In this document: positions 14,590-34,560 of the stretch, piece after piece
Layout: every line of letters starts with the position of its first letter
Position numbering within the stretch: position 1 is the first letter of the stretch
Source: Bacilli bacterium
Lineage (GTDB): Bacteria > Bacillota_I > Bacilli_A > RF39 > UBA660
Length of the DNA stretch: 64,000 nucleotides
Direction: 5' to 3'
Assembly: GCA_017626405.1 (NCBI GenBank)
Contig: JAGAIS010000005.1
Span: 4,086 to 68,085 of the forward strand
The notes under the pieces: model-generated
What the model was told of the DNA's origin: nothing
Seen by the model: only the letters and a program-made list of their open reading frames with translations
The model's database searches: none
Translations under genes and position numbers: made by a program

Positions 14590-14681
14590 GGAGAAGTACC
14601 CAAGATGGCTGAAGGGACTGGTCTTGAAAACCAGCAGGTCGGGCAACTGGCGCGAGGGTTCGAATCCCTCTTTCTCCGCCA
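14590..14681 (+). tRNA. tRNA-Ser(TGA)
   Basis: Cloverleaf with long variable arm, anticodon loop CTTGAAA, encoded CCA. Confidence 0.95.
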
Positions 14682-14699
14682 TTTTAAAATAATTTATAT

Positions 14700-14776
<77 letters not shown>

Positions 14777-14781
14777 TATTT

Positions 14782-14858
14782 GGTCCGTTAGTCTAGAGGC
14801 CTATGACGTCTGCCTGTCACGCAGAAGACCACGGGTTCGAATCCCGTACGGACCGCCA
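14782..14858 (+). tRNA. tRNA-Asp(GTC)
   Basis: Anticodon loop CTGTCAC, GGTTCGAATCC, CCA. Confidence 0.95.
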
Positions 14859-14862
14859 TGAT

Positions 14863-14938
<76 letters not shown>

Positions 14939-14950
14939 GTAAAGTCAATT

Positions 14951-14975
14951 AACTACGTATTAACGTAGTTTTTTA
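14951..14975 (+). terminator. intrinsic terminator of tRNA operon 1
   Basis: AACTACGT-atta-ACGTAGTT followed by T-run. Confidence 0.8.
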
Positions 14976-15330
14976 TTGATTTTAATTATAATGTGAAAAA
15001 TGAAAAAATTAGTTTTTTACTTAGAATAAAATAAAAAAATGTAGAAAACATACGAATTTTAAATAATAAATTATAAGATAATAGTTTAATCTAATGTTAT
15101 TATCAATGAATAGTAAATACCACATTATTACTAAGTTCAAAATTAAAAAATATTCGTTAATGACATGCAGAAAATGCTACCAAAATAGTAAATATTGTTT
15201 AAAAGTTTTGATGTATAAGTAAAAAACATTAAAAAATTAAAGAAATTGAATAAAAATTTAAAAAAAGTCTTGATTTAGTCGTTGATTTAAGTTATTATTA
15301 AATAGTCTTAATTTGTTAGACATGGTGCAC

Positions 15331-15419
15331 GCCCGAGTGGCGGAATAGGTAGACGCACAGGACTTAAAATCCTGCGGGTGTTAAAGCCCGTGCCGGTTCA
15401 AGTCCGGCCTCGGGCACCA
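15331..15419 (+). tRNA. tRNA-Leu(TAA)
   Basis: Anticodon loop CTTAAAA, long variable arm, CCA. Confidence 0.95.
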
Positions 15420-15441
15420 TTTATAAATTTTTTTAAAAAAT

Positions 15442-15518
15442 GGGCGATTAGCTCAGTTGGTTAGAGCACTTGCCTTACAAGCAAGGGGTCATAGGTTCGA
15501 GTCCTATATCGCCCACCA
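15442..15518 (+). tRNA. tRNA-Val(TAC)
   Basis: Anticodon loop CTTACAA, CCA. Confidence 0.95.
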
Positions 15519-15526
15519 TTTTTTTT

Positions 15527-15602
15527 GCCGACATAGCGTAACTGGCAGCGCAACTGACTTGTAATCAGTAGGTTGGGGGTTCGACTCCCTCTGTCGGCAC
15601 CA
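15527..15602 (+). tRNA. tRNA-Thr(TGT)
   Basis: Anticodon loop CTTGTAA, CCA. Confidence 0.95.
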
Positions 15603-15612
15603 CTTTTTTTAT

Positions 15613-15696
15613 GGAGGGTTAGCGAAGTGGTCAAACGCGGCAGACTGTAAATCTGTTCCTTCGGGTTCCATGGTCCGAATCCATGACCCTCCACCA
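15613..15696 (+). tRNA. tRNA-Tyr(GTA)
   Basis: Anticodon loop CTGTAAA, variable arm, CCA; T-loop reads TCCGAAT. Confidence 0.93.
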
Positions 15697-15707
15697 CTTT
15701 AGTTTAT

Positions 15708-15783
15708 TGCCTCGTAGCCAAGTGGTAAGGCATCAGACTTTGACTCTGACATTCCGATGGTTCGAGTCCATCCGAGGCAACCA
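15708..15783 (+). tRNA. tRNA-Gln(TTG)
   Basis: Anticodon loop CTTTGAC, CCA. Confidence 0.93.
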
Positions 15784-15794
15784 CTTTATTATAT

Positions 15795-15870
15795 GTTCCG
15801 CTAGCTCAGCCGGTAGAGCATCTGACTTTTAATCAGAGGGTCTGGGATTCGAATTCCCAGCGGGACACCA
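15795..15870 (+). tRNA. tRNA-Lys(TTT)
   Basis: Anticodon loop CTTTTAA, CCA. Confidence 0.93.
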
Positions 15871-15956
15871 TCTGTATTTATTGCACAACGTTAAATCGTT
15901 GTTTTTTTATTTTAAATTCAAAATTAAGTTTTTTGCTTTTTTATAAAAAAAGAAAC

Positions 15957-16376
15957 TTATATAAATAAGTTTTCTTTATATTTTATATTTTTGTTAGTTA
16001 TTATTATACACAAATCTTCATTTTCATAAAAAGTATCTTCATAAGAGTTTTGAATTTTTCCGTTAGAAGCAACTCTTTTTTTTGCTAGTTGAAATTCTTG
16101 ATATCCGCCATTGGTAAAACTTATTCCAACTTTTGTGATATTTCTTTGCTTCATAATATTTTTCATAATTGTAGCGCTTCCTGCGTCGGTTTTTTGAAGT
16201 TTAATCATAAAAAAGTTAGCTTTTAGATTTCCTTCGTTATCTTTTTCGTAACTAATTTCATCACCATTATCATCAATATTTGAAATGTAAAAGTGATTAA
16301 ACTCGTCGGATGACACCGAGATTATGTCATTATTAGTTGTTGATAAATCTATGTTGTATATTATCCCAGTATTCAT
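15957..16376 (-). CDS. hypothetical protein between tRNA operons
   Basis: 139-aa ORF with AGGTGA SD; no motif recognised. Confidence 0.65.
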   Translation of the reverse strand: MNTGIIYNIDLSTTNNDIISVSSDEFNHFYISNIDDNGDEISYEKDNEGNLKANFFMIKLQKTDAGSATIMKNIMKQRNITKVGISFTNGGYQEFQLAKKRVASNGKIQNSYEDTFYENEDLCIIITNKNIKYKENLFI

Positions 16377-16547
16377 TTTATCACCTATAAAAATTATAGC
16401 ATATCTAATAATAATTTTATATATATTATTTTTAAAATTATAATGTTAATAAAATATATTAAAAATATGTAATATTTTTCTTGAAATTATCATAAAATGT
16501 GTTATAATGAATAAGTAATTCAGTTTTAATCACATCGAAAGGGAACC

Positions 16548-16624
16548 GCGCTCATAGCGCAATTGGATAGAGCGTTAGACTACGGATCTAAAGGTTAGGG
16601 GTTCGACTCCCTTTGGGCGCACCA
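16548..16624 (+). tRNA. tRNA-Arg(ACG)
   Basis: Anticodon loop CTACGGA, CCA. Confidence 0.95.
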
Positions 16625-16628
16625 TTTT

Positions 16629-16705
16629 CGAGAAGTAGCACAGTTTGGTAGTGCACTTGGTTTGGGACCAAGGGGTCGCAGGTTCGAATCCTGTCTTCTC
16701 GACCA
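16629..16705 (+). tRNA. tRNA-Pro(TGG)
   Basis: Anticodon loop TTTGGGA, CCA. Confidence 0.95.
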
Positions 16706-27177: not shown

Positions 27178-28161
27178 ATGAAGTTAAATATTTCAAATTC
27201 AGGTATATATGACCCTATTAAGAACGATTTAGAAGATGCTATAACAAATCTTAATAATGCAAAATCTATTCTAACTAGTCCTCCAGCTTCTTTTAGTCAA
27301 AGTGGATATATGTCTAGTTTACCATCTAAAATTAATAACTTGATTAGAAAAGTTACTAATTTGAGCAATTCTGCTTTGCGAATTGATCAAAAATATAAAG
27401 ATTATATATTAGATAAGAAAACCAAATTTAATAGTATAGATGATTATACATTAAATGAGAGAATAGGTCTTAGTGATCAATTTCAAATGTCTAGTTCAAA
27501 GTACAATGTTAATAGTGAGATTATTATGAACGAAAGTGGTATGTTGGTATTTAAAGCAATTGCTAGCGCAACAGGTATTAAATCTGCTTTAGATCATGGA
27601 TCTAGTAATATAAAAGATAGCAATGAACAACCAAGTAAAGAAGAAAAGGCATATATTAAAGGAACTCCAGATACGGTTAGTATCGAAACTGACGAACCTA
27701 TAGATAATGTTCCAAAAGAACCGGTTATTGAAAATCCAACTCCATCAAATGGAAATGGTGATATTCCAGGTACTCATTCTCCAGGTACAATGGAACCTTC
27801 ATATCAAGCGCAAGCATATAATTTATCTCCTGAAGAGTATAAGGTTCTTTGTGCTACAGTGTATGCAGAAGCTGCAGAAGGAAATGAGTATACTTATTCT
27901 GATACTATGGGAGTTACTTCTTCAATACTTAATAGAGTTGAAGCCGGTAACTGGGGCGGTTCAAGTGTAACAGAGGTAGTATCTGCACCTAATCAGTTTG
28001 AAGGTTATGGATATCAAAACCAAAAGTTTTCTCGTGCTATGAATGATCCTAGTTGTATTTCGCCAGAAATGATGCAAGCTATAAATGATACTCTTGCTGG
28101 AAGAAGAAATACTGAAGGCTATAGTTTTTATGGAAATGGAACACATAATGCATTTAGATAG
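27178..28161 (+). CDS. putative T7SS substrate with C-terminal SleB-like (Hydrolase_2) cell-wall hydrolase
   Basis: No signal peptide; helical N-terminus, Pro-rich linker, LCATVYAEA.EG...GV.SSILNRV...SVTEVV.APNQFE...GTHNAF. Confidence 0.85.
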   Translation: MKLNISNSGIYDPIKNDLEDAITNLNNAKSILTSPPASFSQSGYMSSLPSKINNLIRKVTNLSNSALRIDQKYKDYILDKKTKFNSIDDYTLNERIGLSDQFQMSSSKYNVNSEIIMNESGMLVFKAIASATGIKSALDHGSSNIKDSNEQPSKEEKAYIKGTPDTVSIETDEPIDNVPKEPVIENPTPSNGNGDIPGTHSPGTMEPSYQAQAYNLSPEEYKVLCATVYAEAAEGNEYTYSDTMGVTSSILNRVEAGNWGGSSVTEVVSAPNQFEGYGYQNQKFSRAMNDPSCISPEMMQAINDTLAGRRNTEGYSFYGNGTHNAFR

Positions 28162-29017: not shown

Positions 29018-31120
29018 ATGATTCTTATTATTGCAGAAAAACCATCGCTTGCAAGAAACATTGTCAATGCAATTGGGAACATGAAAAACAATAATGGCTA
29101 TTACACTAATGACAAATATATTGTTACATATACTATTGGTCATTTGTTCACTCTAGCTGATATTGAAGACTATAGCGATACTCCAACTGATGGAAGATGG
29201 ACAATGGATAATATCCCTTGCTTTCCAACGCGATTTAAATTTAATTTAAAAAAAGCAGCAAACAAAAAAGTAGATCCAGGTATTTTAAAACAATATAATA
29301 TAATTGAAAGTTTAATAAATAGAGAAGACGTCGATACAATAGTAAATGCAGGTGATGCTGATCGTGAAGGAGAAGTAATAATTAGATTAATTGTCGATAA
29401 TGCACTGAAGTCAGAAAAGAAAAAGGTTAGGCTTTGGGTTCCTGATCAGACAGTAGAGACTATTAATGCAGGACTAAGTGATCTGAAGGATGAATCTAAT
29501 TATGATAATTTAGCAAATGAAGGATTAGCAAGAACTTACATTGATTGGCTTTATGGAGTAAATTTAACGAGATTTGCAACTTTAAAGACAGGTACTCTTT
29601 TAAGAGTTGGGAGGGTAATTATTCCAATAGTAAAAGCTATATATGATCGCGATATGGCAATAAGAAACTTCAAACCGGAAATATACTATGGTATTAATAG
29701 TAATGAGCTAACTAAGAATGAAGAAATTGAACTTAATAGCAAAGAAAAATTTGATAAGAAAGATTTAAAGAAAGCACAGGAATATTGTAATACATTAAAT
29801 AGTTTAGATGCTATAGTAATGGATAAAAAAGTAAAGAAAGATACTTTAAATCCAGGAAAATTATACTCTTTATCAAAATTGCAAAATTACTTAGGAAAAA
29901 AGTATAAGATGCCAATGGATAAGTCTTTATCAATAGTTCAAAAACTATATGAAAGTGGATATTTAACTTATCCTCGTACTAATTCTGAATACCTAGCAGT
30001 AGCAGAAAAAGATAAGATTAAAACTATTCTAAATAATATATCAAAGATTGGTTATCCAGTTAAATTTAAAGATAAGAAAACAATTTTTGATGACTCAAAA
30101 ATTGAATCACATTCAGCTTTGACTCCAACATATAAGATTCCTAAAAAAGAAAATTTAACTGAAGAAGAATTTTTAGTTTATCAAACTGTATTTAAAAGAT
30201 TTGTAGCAGTATTCTGCAGTGAGGATTGTACAGTAGAAAAGACTGAGATTAAGATTAAATGTGGTGATTTAGAAGAATTTACTTTAAAGGGAACAATCAT
30301 TATTAATCCAGGATGGACAAAGTTTGATGATACTTCTACTAAAGATAAAATATTGCCCAATTTAGAAATTGGAGAAAAGATAAATACTAATTTTAAACCA
30401 AAAGAAAAAGAGACAACACCTCCTAAGCACTATACTATTGAAACTTTAAATAATTATCTAAAGAATCCATTTAAAGAAGATAAGAAGGCATTGGAAGAAA
30501 ACCAAGATGAAGTGGATGATACTGAAGATTATAAGGCAATTTTTGAAGGATTAGAACTAGGTACTGAAGCAACAAGAACGGGAATTATTAAAAATGCTAT
30601 TACTTCAGAATATATTGCTCTAAATAAAGATGTCTATACAATCCAAAATCAGGGAATATATTTAATTGAATCTTTAAGTCAAATGGATATATCTATGGAT
30701 AAATATAAGACAAGTGAAATGGGTAAGGCATTAAAAAAAGTCTATCATGAAGAAATATCTGTAGATGACTCTATTAAGATTGCAATTGATGAAATTAGTG
30801 AAGTTTTTAAGAAAAAAGATAGTCCAATAGAAAGAGATAAAGATACTGGTTTTTTTGGTGATGTAATAGGCAAGTGTCCATTATGTGGCAGTGAAGTAGT
30901 AAAGAATAGATATGCTTACGGATGCAAAGATTATAAGAATTGTTCTTTTAAAATTAATACAGTTATCTGTAATCGAGTAATATCAAAAAAACATGCTGAA
31001 AGCTTATTGGAGAATGGCATTACGGCAAAAATAAATGGATTTGTTTCTAAAAATGGCAAATCTTTTGATGCCAAACTTAAACTTGATAAAGATAAAGTTA
31101 TTTTTGATTTTAGTGAGTAA
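29018..31120 (+). CDS. topB: DNA topoisomerase III
   Basis: IIAEKPS, AGDADREGE, LYESGYLTYPRT, LGTEATR, C-terminal CPLCG / GFVSKNGKSFDAKL repeat. Confidence 0.92.
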   Translation: MILIIAEKPSLARNIVNAIGNMKNNNGYYTNDKYIVTYTIGHLFTLADIEDYSDTPTDGRWTMDNIPCFPTRFKFNLKKAANKKVDPGILKQYNIIESLINREDVDTIVNAGDADREGEVIIRLIVDNALKSEKKKVRLWVPDQTVETINAGLSDLKDESNYDNLANEGLARTYIDWLYGVNLTRFATLKTGTLLRVGRVIIPIVKAIYDRDMAIRNFKPEIYYGINSNELTKNEEIELNSKEKFDKKDLKKAQEYCNTLNSLDAIVMDKKVKKDTLNPGKLYSLSKLQNYLGKKYKMPMDKSLSIVQKLYESGYLTYPRTNSEYLAVAEKDKIKTILNNISKIGYPVKFKDKKTIFDDSKIESHSALTPTYKIPKKENLTEEEFLVYQTVFKRFVAVFCSEDCTVEKTEIKIKCGDLEEFTLKGTIIINPGWTKFDDTSTKDKILPNLEIGEKINTNFKPKEKETTPPKHYTIETLNNYLKNPFKEDKKALEENQDEVDDTEDYKAIFEGLELGTEATRTGIIKNAITSEYIALNKDVYTIQNQGIYLIESLSQMDISMDKYKTSEMGKALKKVYHEEISVDDSIKIAIDEISEVFKKKDSPIERDKDTGFFGDVIGKCPLCGSEVVKNRYAYGCKDYKNCSFKINTVICNRVISKKHAESLLENGITAKINGFVSKNGKSFDAKLKLDKDKVIFDFSE

Positions 31121-31126
31121 CTTATA

Positions 31127-31155
31127 TTGACAATTTTTCGATTACTAAGTATAAT
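31127..31155 (+). promoter_or_regulatory. consensus sigma-A promoter with no downstream ORF
   Basis: TTGACA-N17-TATAAT, exact consensus. Confidence 0.85.
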
Positions 31156-31161
31156 AAAGTT

Positions 31162-31509
31162 ACTTAGTATAATAAAGTAGTTAACGATTTTTATTTTTGT
31201 ATACTTTTATGTTAATAAAACTATACTTTCTAACATTTTAAATGTTAATTTATTCCTAGTTTAACTACTCTATAGACATTAATGAATAAGCATGTTGATT
31301 CATGGTTACTTGTAATCTTGATAGACTGCCAGATTCATTAAATGCCTATATTATCGAATGTCTTAATGACTATAACTTCGACTAAGTATGCACGTGTTAT
31401 TGAGAAAGAAAACTCATCAGAAGTTATGAGTGCTGATTATTACTGATAATAATAATTAGTATCTATTCAAAACTTGAAATTACTCTAGTTTATCAGGCTA
31501 GAGTTTTTT
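31162..31509 (+). ncRNA. candidate large structured ncRNA of unknown family
   Basis: Bracketed by a consensus promoter and a terminator (31482-31509); four consecutive paired domains; no SD-led ORF. Confidence 0.55.
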
Positions 31510-31581
31510 CATGGTTGAAAATAAGTAATTTACTTTTTTCAATTACTAAGATATAATTTTGTTAGAATAGAGAGTGGTAAC

Positions 31582-32745
31582 ATGAAAGAGAATAATAAAG
31601 TAAGTACATCGATGATTTTTATTGTATTTTTAATATTTGCAATATCAATGATATTTTTAACGGTTCTTTTATCTAACCGAATAATTAATACAGATAATTA
31701 CTTTAAAAACTATAATACTTATCTAGATAATAATCTATCAGAGCAATTGAGAAAGCAAGAAAAAGTAGATGAACAATTAAAGGATATCGCTAAGAATGGA
31801 AATTACTCTTTAAATAATCCTTATGTGATGGTGAATCCTTATGGAATAAGTCCATTAACTGCTATAATTATATTTAATACAATGAATAAGGAAAGTGTCT
31901 CTCTATACATCAATGATGTTAAAGTTGCTGAAGATAATGAATCAATAATGCATATTATTCCCGTTATTGGACTATATAATAATAGCAACAATGTTATTAC
32001 TTTAGAATCTTCTAGTGGAGAAAAATCAACAATTAATATATCAACTGAATCGTTAAATGATTTTGTTAATGACTTCGATCTAGAAAAGATTAAAGATACC
32101 AATAAATCTTCTATTATTTTAATGGGCAATATTAATAGTAATAACTCTATTATAAGAGGCTTCGATGAGAATAATAATTTGAATTATTACTTAGATTTTG
32201 ACTATTTAAGTGGGTATTTAGTTAAAGGGGATCATTTATTAGTTGAATATAATACCAGAATGTTTGGGAATACTAATATTAAAAATATTATTCTTGAAAT
32301 AGATTATTTGGGAAAAATACATTCAATAAAGACAGATACTAGTGAGATAAATCACAATATAAATTTCACATTAGAGGAATCTGAATATATTGCTCAATCA
32401 GCAAATTACTATAATGGAGTAGTATCTTATAATATTAATAAATGTATGGATAATTACGATTATTCAATTTTTAAGAATATTAATACAGAAAGTATAGTAA
32501 GTGAATTGGATAAGGCAGAAATCTATAGGGAAGACTTCGATATTGCTCTTATGGGAGAATACGTAAGTGTTGATTTTAAAGATAAGGATGTTACATTATT
32601 AATGGTAAATAAATATAACAATTTAGTTTATTCCTACGAAGTAGATGGAAGCGCTTTAATAAAAGTAAATGCACAAGATGATATTTCACTATTTGTAATA
32701 GTTGATAATAAATATTATAACTTACTAACTGTATTGGGAAAATAA
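31582..32745 (+). CDS. membrane-anchored protein with arylsulfotransferase N-terminal Ig-like domain
   Basis: NPYV.VNPYGISPLTAIIIFNT...HIIPVIGLYNNSNNVITL. Confidence 0.75.
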   Translation: MKENNKVSTSMIFIVFLIFAISMIFLTVLLSNRIINTDNYFKNYNTYLDNNLSEQLRKQEKVDEQLKDIAKNGNYSLNNPYVMVNPYGISPLTAIIIFNTMNKESVSLYINDVKVAEDNESIMHIIPVIGLYNNSNNVITLESSSGEKSTINISTESLNDFVNDFDLEKIKDTNKSSIILMGNINSNNSIIRGFDENNNLNYYLDFDYLSGYLVKGDHLLVEYNTRMFGNTNIKNIILEIDYLGKIHSIKTDTSEINHNINFTLEESEYIAQSANYYNGVVSYNINKCMDNYDYSIFKNINTESIVSELDKAEIYREDFDIALMGEYVSVDFKDKDVTLLMVNKYNNLVYSYEVDGSALIKVNAQDDISLFVIVDNKYYNLLTVLGK

Positions 32746-32826
32746 AAAGTGTTAAGTCACTTTTTTTAATAGAAAAAACATTTGACAATAGAAAATTAAG
32801 TGTTAGAATATGTGAAGGTGTTTTAT

Positions 32827-34560
32827 ATGAGTTTAATAAAAGAAGCGGAAGTATATTTGAATGATATTTTAAAGTCATTAAATTATGAAGGTATTGCTGT
32901 TAGATTAGAAGTATCTAGTAAAAGGGAATTTGGGCAATATCAATTTAATGGTGCAATGCAATTAGCTAAAAGGTACGGAAAAAATCCACGTGAAATTGCT
33001 GAAGAAATAGCATCTAAAATTGATAAATATTTTGAAAATATAAATATTCAAGGGCCTGGTTTTATTAATCTAACTTTTAAAAATGAGGTACTAATTGAAC
33101 ATTTAAATAAAGGTATTAATGATTTTGATATATTTGTTGATAAAGGTGAAAAAACTAAGAAAATAGTTCTTGATTATGGAGGAGCTAACATTGCAAAAGA
33201 ATTGCATGTAGGGCATTTGAGATGCAATATTGGAGAAGCCGTAAGAAGATTGATTAAATTATTTAAAGATGAATCAATTGGAGATGTTCACTGGGGAGAC
33301 TGGGGAACGCCAATTGGTCTTGTTATTCGTGAGATACAAGAAAATAATCCGGAATTGCCTTACTTTGATGAAAACTACACAGGACCTTATCCGGAAATAT
33401 CACCAGTTACAAGTGAGGATCTAGGTATCTACTACCCTCGTGCAAGTAAGCGTTCAAAAGAAGATGAAAAGTATGCAGAAGAAGCAAGAATTCTTACAGA
33501 AAAATTTCAAAAGGGAGTTCCTGGAATTCGTGCATTATGGAGACATATAGTAAACGTAAGTAAAGAAGATTGCAATAAAATATATGATTATTTGAATTGT
33601 AAGTTTGATTATAGTTATGGAGAGTCTGATGCTGATTCTTATGTTGACGAAACTTTAGAGTTCTTAAAATCTAAGGGAGTAACAGAAGTAAGTGATGGTG
33701 CTTTAATCATGCACGTTAAAGAAGATGATGACAAAAAAGAAATGCCTCCATTAATTTTAGTAAAAAGTAACGGATCTATTGGATATGATACGACAGATTT
33801 AGCGACAATTTTGCAAAGAATGAAGGACTTTAATCCCGATGGAATTTGGTATTTTGTAGATGAAAGACAAAATCTTCATTTTGAGCAAATCTTTAGAGCA
33901 TGTAAAAAGTCCGGTTTAGTACCTGAAGATTTCGATTTTAGATTTAATGGATTCGGAACAATCAATGGTCCTGATGGAAAACCATTTAAGACTCGCGATG
34001 GTGGAGTAATGAGTTTAAAAGGTTTGATTAAGTTAGTATATGATACGATTGAACCAAAGATTAAAGACGATATTGTTGGTGAAGAGAGAATTGATGTTGC
34101 TAATAAATTAACAGTAGCAACACTAAAATTTTCTGACTTGCTTCCAAATCGTGAAACTGATTATATATTTGATGTTGATAAATTTACATCGTTTGAAGGT
34201 AAAACGGGAATTTATGTAGTTTATACGACAACGCGAATAAAATCTTTAATTAATAAAATTGGAGATAATACTAGTGAAATAAAATTAATTCCAAATGAAG
34301 AAATACTTAATATCTTAGTAAAAATTACAGAATTGCCAAGAACTTTAACAAGTTGTTATCGTGAAGTTAATTTAAGTTATATATGTGAATTTTTATATGA
34401 ATTATGCAGTTTATATAATAAATTCTATACTAATTTTAATATTATGAATGAATCTGACGAAGAAATTAAAGCAAGTTATATTGGAGTTTCGAGGTTGGTT
34501 TATAATATTTTACACAATTTATTAGATACATTAGGTATTGATGAAGTGGAAAAAATGTAA
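32827..34560 (+). CDS. argS: arginine--tRNA ligase
   Basis: DYGGANIAKELHVGHLR, GDWGT, GKPFKTRDGG, FEGKTG. Confidence 0.96.
   Translation: MSLIKEAEVYLNDILKSLNYEGIAVRLEVSSKREFGQYQFNGAMQLAKRYGKNPREIAEEIASKIDKYFENINIQGPGFINLTFKNEVLIEHLNKGINDFDIFVDKGEKTKKIVLDYGGANIAKELHVGHLRCNIGEAVRRLIKLFKDESIGDVHWGDWGTPIGLVIREIQENNPELPYFDENYTGPYPEISPVTSEDLGIYYPRASKRSKEDEKYAEEARILTEKFQKGVPGIRALWRHIVNVSKEDCNKIYDYLNCKFDYSYGESDADSYVDETLEFLKSKGVTEVSDGALIMHVKEDDDKKEMPPLILVKSNGSIGYDTTDLATILQRMKDFNPDGIWYFVDERQNLHFEQIFRACKKSGLVPEDFDFRFNGFGTINGPDGKPFKTRDGGVMSLKGLIKLVYDTIEPKIKDDIVGEERIDVANKLTVATLKFSDLLPNRETDYIFDVDKFTSFEGKTGIYVVYTTTRIKSLINKIGDNTSEIKLIPNEEILNILVKITELPRTLTSCYREVNLSYICEFLYELCSLYNKFYTNFNIMNESDEEIKASYIGVSRLVYNILHNLLDTLGIDEVEKM

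What the first reader, a model, noticed from the sequence alone, without database searches (positions are those of the whole stretch)
31127..31509. Unannotated ~340-nt multi-domain structured RNA behind a perfect sigma-A promoter
Seen: TTGACA-N17-TATAAT followed by back-to-back paired domains. (1) AGTAGTTAA 31176-84 pairs with TTAACTACT 31261-69, enclosing two hairpins (31199-31226 and 31231-31247). (2) TATAGACATTAATGAAT 31271-87 pairs, with one mismatch and one bulge, with ATTCATTAAATGCCTATA 31333-50. (3) TATAACTTC 31371-79 pairs with GAAGTTATG 31420-28. (4) Hairpin 31441-31461. A terminator follows at 31482-31509. The longest ORF I found (34 codons) lacks an SD. I see no RNase P (GAGGAAAGTCC), tmRNA, SRP or T-box signatures. 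An 18-bp imperfect duplication gives a second TATAAT at 31168. Inference: a novel standalone ncRNA.
Basis: partly seen in the sequence, partly recalled or inferred. Interest (0 to 1): 0.72.

Follow-up and report, generated by a model that had tools for sequence, protein, structure and literature searches.

The report
Full-length PGK-motif RNA gene
This is a real, separately transcribed, roughly 350-base folded RNA of an uncultured gut bacterium; part of it is already catalogued as the function-unknown 'PGK motif', and its sequence pattern suggests that two copies pair with each other.

Summary
A perfect TTGACA-17-TATAAT promoter, unique in the window, an intrinsic terminator and all four paired domains are present. 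They are conserved in 19 of 21 same-genus genomes. On the genus alignment 94.0% of cells pair, against 85.7% shuffled and 33-43% slid. Animal-gut RNA-library contigs cover only 31183-31473 and neither flanking gene.

It behaves as a stand-alone ncRNA, but it is not a new family. Positions 31365-31456 match Rfam PGK RNA (RF03040) over the full model at 50.6 bits; the cut-off is 50.8. Same-genus orthologues score 54.6 and 62.1, and pgk-adjacent relatives 94-98. RNase P, 6S, tmRNA and SRP RNA lie elsewhere in the genome.

Apparently undescribed:
- The 92-nt motif is the core of a 276-578-nt promoter-to-terminator RNA.
- The RNA's extreme 5' end pairs inside the motif, forming a pseudoknot.
- The terminator loop is complementary to the motif's hairpin loop.
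- An 8-14-nt segment is a perfect palindrome in 44 of 55 relatives, with 10 different cores. This is the signature of a symmetric RNA-RNA dimer.

The scan noted a similar orphan RNA in another genome (e1-4950290).

The parts
31127..31155 (+). Sigma-70-type promoter: -35 TTGACA (31127-31132), 17-nt spacer, -10 TATAAT (31150-31155)
   Evidence: 12 of 12 matches and unique in the window. The same TTGACA lies at a fixed distance before the conserved 5' motif in relatives; the gap from the -10 box to CUUAG is 7 nt in 42 of 57 distinct upstream regions.
31161..31509 (+). Predicted transcript, about 349 nt: the full-length PGK-motif RNA. Both ends are inferred, not mapped.
   Evidence: Inferred from promoter and terminator positions. 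RNA-library contigs cover 31183-31473 only. Conserved in 19 of 21 same-genus genomes.
31161..31168 (+). P0, 5' strand (UACUUAGU) at the extreme 5' end
   Evidence: Pairs with 31381-31388 in the MFE and in RNAalifold. 100% paired in 19 of 19 genus sequences. Other sequence but kept pairing in G138, G148, L035 and L055, by reading.
31176..31269 (+). 5' domain closed by helix P1a (31176-31184 with 31261-31269). It holds hairpin 31199-31226 and the lineage-variable hairpin 31231-31247.
   Evidence: P1a: 90.7% of cells paired, 5 of 9 pairs changed on both sides. Hairpin 31199-31226: 95.7% paired, 5 of 11 pairs changed on both sides.
31271..31350 (+). Domain 2: one long irregular hairpin with a conserved apical part (GAUUCAUGG...AUCUUGAUAG)
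   Evidence: In the MFE. 19 of 19 genus segments fold as a single hairpin. Compensatory UCA/UGA to UCG/CGA changes, and G000 versus G003 changes, seen by reading. Column counts on the MAFFT alignment are poor at 54-73%.
31360..31370 (+). Small hairpin (GUC/GAC) after the conserved GCGAAUGUC
   Evidence: 96.5% of cells paired; no pair changed on both sides.
31365..31456 (+). Match to Rfam RF03040 (PGK RNA): P1 31371-31379 with 31420-31428; H1 31401-31416 (loop AAAGAAAA); H2 31433-31459 (loop CUGAUAA, 31443-31449)
   Evidence: cmscan 50.6 bits, E = 1.9e-5, model 1-92 of 92. Single copy in the genome. P1 is 89.5% paired in the majority register, H2 83.2% with 8 of 10 pairs changed on both sides.
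31381..31388 (+). P0, 3' strand (ACUAAGUA) inside the loop closed by P1. P0 therefore crosses P1, which makes a pseudoknot.
   Evidence: The crossing follows from the coordinates.
31390..31397 (+). Self-complementary element: CACGUG at 31391-31396, or 8 nt counting G31390-U31397 as a wobble. Candidate symmetric dimerisation site.
   Evidence: Unpaired in the monomer MFE. A palindrome of 8 nt or more in 44 of 55 relatives, with 10 different palindromic central hexamers.
31463..31479 (+). Conserved linker (CUAUUCAAAACUUGAAA; UAUUC...AAACUCGAA in relatives)
   Evidence: Invariant or nearly invariant columns. Its role was not tested.
31482..31509 (+). Intrinsic terminator: stem 31482-31488 with 31498-31504, then a U run. 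The loop carries UUAUCAG (31490-31496), complementary to the H2 loop.
   Evidence: Stem 99.1% paired, 5 of 6 pairs changed on both sides. The 7 loop-loop pairs are invariant in 19 of 19 genus sequences.
31529..31557 (+). Separate promoter-like site (TTTACT-17-TATAAT) for the next gene (31582-32745). Not part of the RNA.
   Evidence: 10 of 12 matches. Comparable sites in relatives: 17 of 37 spacers score at least 11 of 13.

Best explanation
Window 31161-31509 (+) is a stand-alone gene for a structured non-coding RNA, the full-length form of the Rfam PGK motif (RF03040).

Shown here:
- It has its own consensus promoter and a strong intrinsic terminator.
- It is conserved across its genus and in many uncultured gut Bacilli.
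- Most of its helices covary.
- RNA-library contigs cover its body but not the flanking genes.

Inferred fold: the first 8 nt (P0) pair with ACUAAGUA inside the loop closed by PGK stem P1, giving a pseudoknot. That ties the lineage-specific 5' domains (P1a, domain 2) to the conserved core. The H2 loop CUGAUAA can pair with UUAUCAG in the terminator loop.

Inferred mode of action: it works in trans as a stable folded RNA, not as a leader of the next gene. Two molecules associate symmetrically through the self-complementary element at 31390-31397, either as a kissing-hairpin pair or as an extended duplex. P0 and the loop-loop contact could equally form within one molecule or between the two.

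What the dimer then does, for example scaffolding a protein, is not known.
For: Transcription unit:
- Promoter 12 of 12 and unique in the window; terminator.
- The TTGACA box and -10 box sit at fixed positions before the conserved 5' CUUAG; the -10 to CUUAG gap is 7 nt in 42 of 57 distinct upstream regions.

Expression:
- Contigs of 3 RNA runs of one study and of 1 run of a second study (that one possibly DNA) lie only on 31183-31473 of the 2,201 bases laid. All stop at 31473, with no loose ends and nothing on topB or the next gene.

Conservation:
- 19 of 21 same-genus genomes.
- RF03040 found in 20 of 151 genomes of the family sample, one per genus, 15 of them over the cut-off.
- 3 of 151 genomes in the class sample, all in this family.
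- 110 pattern matches among species genomes, about 50 of them in gut Bacilli-type MAGs with the same plan.

Structure:
- 94.0% of cells paired against 85.7% shuffled and 33-43% slid; covariation score 0.297 against 0.149; 0 of 500 shuffles as high.
- The first, uncorrected count gave 83.0% against 76.2%.

Independence from neighbours:
- Downstream genes differ: PGK in 11 loci, PFL-like in 5 (and in most of the genus), Arylsulfotran_N-like in 5, LPG synthase in 3, dUTPase in 2, and others.
- Upstream genes differ too: EF-P, topB, fmt, SpoIVA, AsnS, L7/L12.
- Promoter-like sites stand between terminator and next gene. 17 of 37 spacers score at least 11 of 13. The pgk-adjacent loci L052, L093, L098 and L100 have a perfect TTGACA-17-TATAAT there.

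Dimer:
- 44 of 55 RNAs have a perfect palindrome of 8 nt or more (50 of 55 have 6 or more) at the same place. The mean is 8.5 nt against 4.6 in shuffles.
- There are 10 different central hexamers and every one is self-complementary.
- Adjacent central bases cannot pair within one chain. The same argument was used for the OLE and GOLLD symmetric kissing loops (PMC12286853, passages seen).
- The element is unpaired in the monomer MFE.
Against: - Both transcript ends are inferred. The contigs start 21 nt after and stop 36 nt before the predicted ends. Contigs cannot show ends, strand or expression level, and the three clean RNA runs come from one study.
- P0 and the loop-loop pairs are nearly invariant within the genus, so they carry little covariation there. 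Across the family only the +1 flank of P0 exceeds permutation: 28 of 38 against 23.2, with 27 of 2000 permutations as high. The compensatory cases (G138, G148, L035, L055) were read by eye.
- L035 and L055 keep the H2 loop but have other terminator loops, and they carry an ordinary 3-nt-loop hairpin instead of a palindrome. Neither feature is therefore universal. The conserved H2 loop may have a different partner.
- 11 of 55 RNAs have no perfect palindrome of 8 nt.
- I corrected the P1 register and dropped domain 2 from the count.
- Rfam types the family as cis-regulatory. pgk or pfl follows in the same orientation in many loci.
- No direct evidence of dimerisation exists.
Confidence: 0.55

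Rival explanations
1. Cis-regulatory leader or riboswitch, as Rfam types the PGK motif. The RNA would be the 5' untranslated region of the next gene (pgk or pfl in relatives), and the terminator a regulated attenuator that responds to a metabolite or protein bound by the conserved core.
For: - Rfam type is 'Cis-reg'.
- pgk follows directly, in the same orientation, in 11 loci, and pyruvate formate-lyase in 5 loci plus most of the genus. Both are central carbon-metabolism genes.
- The terminator lies 45-100 nt before the next start codon in most loci.
Against: - In this window the next gene is an Arylsulfotran_N-like protein followed by argS. Elsewhere it is dUTPase, LPG synthase, Obg, MetRS, an ABC ATPase or a TnpB-like gene.
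- A promoter-like site stands between terminator and gene here. It scores at least 11 of 13 in 17 of 37 relatives and is a perfect consensus in four pgk-adjacent loci.
- I found no conserved alternative (antiterminator) pairing by eye.
- RNA contigs do not continue into the next gene.
- Tandem or multiple copies occur in some genomes.
Confidence: 0.15
2. Monomeric trans-acting base-pairing sRNA. The invariant single-stranded loops (CUGAUAAU in H2, AAAGAAAA in H1) would pair with target mRNAs. The palindrome would be only a small hairpin.
For: - Own promoter and terminator, as in classical sRNAs.
- The H2 loop is invariant even in L035 and L055, where the complementary terminator loop is missing. 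This fits an external partner.
Against: - At 276-578 nt, with many covarying helices and a 5'-end pseudoknot, it is far more elaborate than typical base-pairing sRNAs.
- The self-complementary centre of the palindrome in all 10 sequence variants is not explained by a hairpin.
- No target search was done.
Confidence: 0.2
3. Not an RNA at all: AT-rich intergenic DNA with chance hairpins, a DNA-level element, or a small protein gene.
For: - The minus strand folds equally well, z = -4.36.
- AT-rich spacers give many promoter-like sites: 13 found against 7.9 expected.
- A 34-codon ORF exists.
Against: - Compensatory changes occur in 29 of 66 pairs, including G-U pairs that exist only on the plus strand.
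- There is a full-length Rfam match.
- RNA contigs are restricted to the element.
- The ORF's ATG is TTG in the closest relative, and the region carries indels in the others.
Confidence: 0.03

Closest known systems
PGK RNA motif, Rfam RF03040. From recall, it was reported in the Weinberg et al. 2017 survey of 224 candidate RNAs, PMC5737381.
   Same: Positions 31365-31456 align to all 92 model positions: stem P1, the CUAAGU internal loop, hairpin GAGAAAGAAAACUC, and the hairpin with loop ACUGAUAAU. Same-genus orthologues exceed the gathering score.
   Different: - The score is 0.2 bits under the gathering cut-off, so default annotation misses it.
- The next gene is not pgk.
- The Rfam model covers 92 nt, whereas the unit here is about 349 nt, with a 5' domain, a 5'-end pseudoknot and a terminator whose loop complements the H2 loop.
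- The evidence here favours a separate transcript over the 'Cis-reg' type.
OLE, ROOL and GOLLD RNAs: large bacterial ncRNAs that form RNA-only homo-oligomers (PMC12286853, abstract and passages seen)
   Same: - A stand-alone, ornate, function-unknown RNA of anaerobic or gut Firmicutes-type bacteria.
- A sequence element that switches between different palindromes. That is the evidence used for the symmetric kissing loops OLE L9.3 and GOLLD L21a.
   Different: - No match to any of those Rfam families at E up to 10.
- It is smaller, about 350 nt.
- Oligomerisation here is only inferred from sequence.
HYER ribozymes HYER1 and HYER5, which dimerise by palindromic base-pairing while relatives without palindromes stay monomers (review PMC12990946, passage seen)
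   Same: Within one family, most members carry a palindrome and a minority (L035, L055) do not.
   Different: No relation in sequence or fold is known, and there is no evidence of catalysis here.
Orphan 360-nt RNA noted earlier in this scan (e1-4950290)
   Same: A promoter-to-terminator RNA of about 360 nt with a conserved 3' part, in AT-rich spore-forming Firmicutes, for which the closest known family was also the PGK motif.
   Different: It lies in another genome with other neighbours (typA).

Membership tests
Rfam RF03040 (PGK RNA) | Covariance-model score at or above the gathering score (50.8 bits) | tested here: not met
   50.6 bits, E = 1.9e-5 in a 601-nt search and 9.2e-6 for the genome; not listed at gathering threshold. 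The miss is 0.2 bits. Same-genus orthologues score 62.1 (G014) and 54.6 (G012).
Rfam RF03040 (PGK RNA) | Full-length match with stem P1, hairpin H1 (GAGAAAG...CUC) and hairpin H2 (loop ACUGAUAAU) | tested here: met
   Model positions 1-92 of 92, with two non-standard pairs marked. In the genus, P1 is 89.5%, H1 98.4% and H2 83.2% paired.
Rfam RF03040 (PGK RNA) | Orthology with sequences that score as clear members | tested here: met
   A continuous series runs from the window copy through the genus (67-94% identity) to the pgk-adjacent type at 94-98 bits. All share the same 5' motif, core and terminator loop.
Rfam RF03040 (PGK RNA) | Position upstream of a phosphoglycerate kinase gene (source of the name; that this is part of the family's description is recalled, not read) | tested here: not met
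   The next genes here are Arylsulfotran_N-like and then argS. pgk follows in 11 of the related loci scanned.
Riboswitch or transcription-attenuation leader | Lies in the 5' UTR of the regulated gene with no promoter in between, next to a consistent set of genes | tested here: not met
   A promoter-like site lies at 31529-31557. 17 of 37 relatives' spacers score at least 11 of 13. The neighbouring genes vary.
Riboswitch or transcription-attenuation leader | Conserved alternative pairing (antiterminator) that competes with the terminator | tested here: inconclusive
   None seen by reading the alignments. No systematic search was run.
Housekeeping RNAs (RNase P, 6S, tmRNA, SRP RNA) | Match to the family model at this locus | tested here: not met
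   No such match at E up to 10. All four are found elsewhere in the genome above their cut-offs.
Homo-oligomeric ornate RNAs (OLE / ROOL / GOLLD type) | Sequence membership in one of those families | tested here: not met
   No Rfam match other than PGK and two chance-level hits.
Homo-oligomeric ornate RNAs (OLE / ROOL / GOLLD type) | Covariation that keeps a loop or strand self-complementary (symmetric intermolecular pairing) | tested here: met
   44 of 55 RNAs have a perfect palindrome of 8 nt or more, with 10 different palindromic central hexamers. The criterion follows PMC12286853.
Homo-oligomeric ornate RNAs (OLE / ROOL / GOLLD type) | Physical evidence of a multimer | not testable with these tools
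   Needs native gels, mass photometry or cryo-EM.

The most novel reading that the evidence does not exclude
PGK-motif RNAs are a further family of natural self-assembling RNAs. They would be abundant, stand-alone transcripts of small-genome, spore-forming gut Bacilli that form symmetric homodimers, or larger assemblies, through a covarying palindrome. The 5'-end helix P0 and the H2-loop/terminator-loop contact might form between chains (domain swap). The Rfam label 'cis-regulatory element of pgk' would then be an artefact of gene order in one lineage.
Probability: 0.4. Interest if true: 0.8.

Novelty: new member of a known kind. Interest (0 to 1): 0.6.

Why it matters
The PGK motif is a catalogued RNA of unknown function that is typed as a gene-control element. 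This locus and its relatives point to a different picture.

- The 92-nt motif is only the core of a much longer RNA with its own promoter and terminator, so its annotation and its model are incomplete. Default Rfam annotation misses this copy.
- The covarying palindrome gives a concrete and cheap test: dimerisation in vitro, with compensatory mutants. A positive result would add a compact, roughly 300-nt member to the very short list of natural RNAs with quaternary structure.
- It would also give a first handle on the function of an RNA that seems to be highly expressed in a poorly known group of gut bacteria.

Tried and rejected
Literature and earlier findings
Its main text has no 'PGK'. What the discoverers said about flanks, terminator or palindrome is therefore unknown to me and may overlap with what I call undescribed.
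- Literature searches for the motif or for its dimerisation found nothing. Three papers on RNA multimers hold no 'PGK' in their main text.
- Earlier-findings look-ups by place, by relatives and by sequence returned nothing.

Alignments and counts
- RNAalifold on the MAFFT genus alignment missed P1a and PGK P1. P1a is split by indels, and P1 crosses P0.
- My first pair count gave PGK P1 only 44% paired, because G000 and G003 sit one column out of register with the other 17 rows. I redefined P1 on the majority register, which leaves G000 and G003 as the 'other: 2' cells.
- Domain 2 could not be counted reliably on this alignment (54-73% paired). I fell back on single-sequence folds.

Ideas rejected or left open
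- Pairing of the second AAACUC motif before the terminator with the 5' half of H1: no consistent complementarity across groups, by reading.
- A helix between GAAU before P1 and AUUC before the terminator looks possible in several groups by eye, but it was not tested.
- An alternative pairing of the 5' end (AGAUAG) with the P1 5' strand exists in the pgk-adjacent group but not in this genus.

Limits of the searches
- The class-level RF03040 search uses stricter filters and missed a genus member known from the DNA search (G005). Its negatives are therefore weak.
- RNA contigs do not cover the first 21 nt, the last 36 nt or the flanks.
- No covariance model was built; the whole RNA exceeds the size the tool calibrates.
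- Script errors of my own.
Full report
**Setting.** The finding lies in the 461-nt spacer between a topoisomerase III-type gene and a 387-aa gene. The upstream gene is at 29018-31120 (+) and carries Pfam Topoisom_bac, Toprim and Toprim_Crpt. The downstream gene is at 31582-32745 (+) and has an Arylsulfotran_N domain. argS follows at 32800-34560. The genome held for this window has 1.25 Mb in 11 contigs and is 88.7% complete.

**Observation.**
- TTGACA-17-TATAAT at 31127-31155 is a 12-of-12 match. It is the only one in 64 kb; 0.04 are expected.
- The terminator at 31482-31504 plus T run is the only terminator-like site in 30900-31800.
- The four pairings appear in the MFE, in inverted-repeat lists or in an Rfam alignment.
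- The 18-nt direct repeat is real, 94% identical, and the 34-codon ORF is the longest.
- The fold is better than shuffles on both strands, z = -4.18 and -4.36. The strand therefore rests on the promoter, the terminator and the G-U pairs.

**Known families.** At Rfam gathering thresholds nothing but 12 tRNAs is found in the window. With E-value reporting on 31050-31650, RF03040 (PGK RNA, type Cis-reg) matches 31365-31456 over all 92 model positions. The score is 50.6 bits, 0.2 under its gathering score, with E = 1.9e-5. RNase P RNA, 6S RNA, tmRNA and SRP RNA are all found elsewhere in the genome above their cut-offs. This is therefore not a diverged housekeeping RNA.

**Conservation.**
- A DNA search of 41 related genomes finds the region in 19 of 21 genomes of the same genus, at 67-94% identity. 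The 5' 80 nt and the 3' 165 nt are the best kept.
- In 17 loci the region follows the topB homologue. The next gene is mostly a pyruvate formate-lyase, but argS or an unknown gene in others, and the Arylsulfotran_N-like gene in G000, G003, G012 and G004.
- RF03040 itself is found in 3 of 151 genomes sampled across the class, all in this family.
- It is found in 20 of 151 genomes sampled one per genus in the family, 15 of them above the cut-off. That search uses stricter filters and missed one genus member known.
- A pattern built from three invariant motifs found 110 places among species genomes. 80 were fetched.
- About 50 of those are uncultured gut 'Bacilli', 'Tenericutes' or 'Clostridium sp. 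CAG:914'-type MAGs with the same plan. The rest, from Bacteroidota, cyanobacteria, archaea and others, lack the other motifs and look like chance.
- Rfam scores form a series: pgk-adjacent loci 94-98 bits, efp-adjacent 84, same-genus G014 62.1 and G012 54.6, this window 50.6. Membership in the family is therefore secure by orthology, although the formal cut-off is missed.

**Common plan of the full-length RNA.** All members share the following elements, in order.
1. A TTGACA box at a fixed distance before a conserved 5' motif UU(A/G)CUUAG. The gap from the -10 box to CUUAG is 7 nt in 42 of 57 distinct upstream regions. For 12 more, my picker chose a later TATAAT, and the box at the usual place is a variant.
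2. A lineage-specific 5' region of about 100-270 nt.
3. The PGK core.
4. Zero to about 200 nt of insert.
5. A conserved UAUUC...AAACUCGAA stretch.
6. A terminator whose loop carries UUAUCAG.

Predicted lengths run from 276 to 578 nt in the loci where both ends were found by motif. One larger figure, for L095, is an artefact of the end-finding motif. The Rfam model covers only 92 nt of this.

**Structure in this genus.** On the 19-sequence alignment A1 I counted pairs for a structure taken from the window sequence.
- First count: 83.0% of cells paired against 76.2% in shuffles and 32-43% with partners slid. Covariation score 0.247 against 0.141, with 0 of 500 shuffles as high.
- Two parts were bad. 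PGK P1 was 44% paired because G000 and G003 sit one column off the other 17 rows. Domain 2 was 54-73% paired because it is poorly aligned.
- After redefining P1 on the majority register and leaving domain 2 out, a post-hoc change, the figures are 94.0% against 85.7% and 33-43%. The covariation score is 0.297 against 0.149, and 29 of 66 pairs changed on both sides.

Per helix:

| Helix | Cells paired | Pairs changed on both sides |
|---|---|---|
| P0 | 100% | 1 of 8 (6 never vary) |
| P1a | 90.7% | 5 of 9 |
| Hairpin 31199-31226 | 95.7% | 5 of 11 |
| Small hairpin | 96.5% | 0 of 3 |
| PGK P1 | 89.5% | 3 of 7 |
| H1 | 98.4% | 1 of 4 |
| H2 | 83.2% | 8 of 10 |
| Terminator | 99.1% | 5 of 6 |
| H2-loop / terminator-loop pairs | 100% | 0 of 7 (invariant) |

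Domain 2 folds as one long hairpin in 19 of 19 sequences, with mononucleotide-shuffle z from -0.56 to -5.97. Compensatory changes are visible between G000 and G003 and in the apical UCA/UGA to UCG/CGA switch.

**P0.** The first 8 nt of the predicted transcript pair with ACUAAGUA. That sequence sits between the P1 5' strand and H1, so P0 crosses P1 and forms a pseudoknot.
- Within the pattern-selected family set the core is invariant. The flanks pair in 38 of 38, 36 of 38 and 28 of 38 distinct combinations, and only the last exceeds permutation (23.2 expected, 27 of 2000 as high).
- Four more distant members keep the pairing with other letters: G138, G148, L035 and L055. I read these by eye.
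- P0 is therefore well supported as conserved complementarity and moderately supported by covariation.

**Palindrome.** The 9-18 nt between CUAAGU and H1 hold a perfect Watson-Crick palindrome.
- It is 8 nt or longer in 44 of 55 RNAs and 6 nt or longer in 50 of 55. The mean is 8.5 nt against 4.6 in shuffles of the same segment.
- There are ten different central hexamers, and each is self-complementary to its very centre.
- Two adjacent central bases cannot pair within one chain. An ordinary hairpin therefore does not explain why the centre is always self-complementary. Pairing between two copies does.
- This is the reasoning used for the symmetric kissing loops of OLE and GOLLD, where a loop switches between different palindromes (PMC12286853, passages seen). 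Palindromic pairing also underlies HYER1 and HYER5 dimers (PMC12990946, passage seen).
- In the window the element is CACGUG at 31391-31396, or 8 nt with a G-U pair. It is unpaired in the monomer MFE.
- Exceptions: L039, L042, L094 and L075 are imperfect, and G148 has none. L035 and L055 have a plain hairpin with a 3-nt loop there, and they also lack UUAUCAG in their terminator loops.
- The two candidate contacts may therefore be lost together in one divergent subgroup.

**Stand-alone or leader?**
- The neighbours differ between lineages. Downstream genes are PGK in 11 loci, PFL-like in 5, Arylsulfotran_N-like in 5, LPG synthase in 3 and dUTPase in 2, plus an unknown ~120-aa gene and single cases of Obg, SpoIVA, MetRS, an ABC ATPase, YutD and TnpB-like. 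Upstream genes are EF-P in 11 loci and topB in about 10, plus fmt, SpoIVA, AsnS, L7/L12 and SpoVS.
- Between terminator and next start codon there is a promoter-like site here, TTTACT-17-TATAAT. In 17 of 37 relatives' spacers the best site scores at least 11 of 13.
- Four pgk-adjacent loci have a perfect TTGACA-17-TATAAT there.
- Some genomes carry two or three copies, some in tandem.

All this favours an independent gene. The name-giving pgk neighbour would then be gene order in one lineage. A leader role with terminator read-through is not excluded.

**Expression.** Of the runs that hold the stretch, three small animal-gut RNA libraries of one study were laid on window 30300-32500, together with one wastewater library of a second study that may be DNA. 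Their contigs (291, 151+151, 151 and 258 nt; 0-3 differences) lie only on 31183-31473. All stop at 31473, have no loose ends and leave both flanking genes uncovered. But if DNA were the source, cover only on this 291-nt piece of the 2.2 kb laid would not be expected.

**Verdict.** This is a real, conserved, structured and probably abundant stand-alone RNA. The family, the PGK motif, is already catalogued with unknown function. The new points are its full extent, the 5'-end pseudoknot, the complementary terminator loop, the evidence against a cis role, and above all the covarying palindrome that predicts a symmetric dimer. I found none of these in the searchable literature.

Noticed in passing
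window 14590-16702: A cluster of 12 tRNA genes on the + strand (Rfam tRNA, 53-77 bits).
   Followed up: no
L039 1495-1586 and 1848-1937 (- strand); also G288:C33:325-417 and 681-774; G249 with three matches: Some relatives carry two PGK-motif RNAs in tandem about 350 nt apart (upstream of pgk in L039), or up to three copies per genome. The window's genome has one copy.
   Followed up: partly
window 31582-32745 compared with loci L004-L021: Gene order breaks right after the RNA. Most same-genus genomes have a pyruvate formate-lyase gene there. G000 and G003 have an Arylsulfotran_N-like gene followed by argS. G013 has argS directly, and G006 an unknown 270-aa gene followed by argS.
   Followed up: partly
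window 32746-32799 (before argS, GTG start at 32800): Only 54 nt separate the previous gene from argS, and no T-box or other Rfam leader was reported anywhere in the window at gathering thresholds.
   Followed up: no
L072 1781-2242: An IS605 OrfB/TnpB-like open frame (HTH_OrfB_IS605, Cas12f1-like_TNB) lies directly after the RNA's terminator in one relative.
   Followed up: no
window 31142-31177: The first copy of the 18-nt direct repeat, inside the promoter spacer, reads ACUAAGUAU. This is identical to the 3' strand of P0 at 31381-31389 (D6) and is seen only in G000 and G003. If any transcript started further upstream, it would carry a competitor for the 5' strand of P0.
   Followed up: no
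window 27178-28161; relatives L042, L049, L078, L107: Sporulation-type genes occur in these small (0.8-2 Mb) genomes: Hydrolase_2, a cell-wall hydrolase, in the window, and SpoIVA and SpoVS next to the RNA in relatives.
   Followed up: no
L035 255-369: A ribosomal protein L10 leader (RF00557, 47.6 bits, over its cut-off) lies upstream of rplL. The PGK-type RNA follows rplL in that relative.
   Followed up: no
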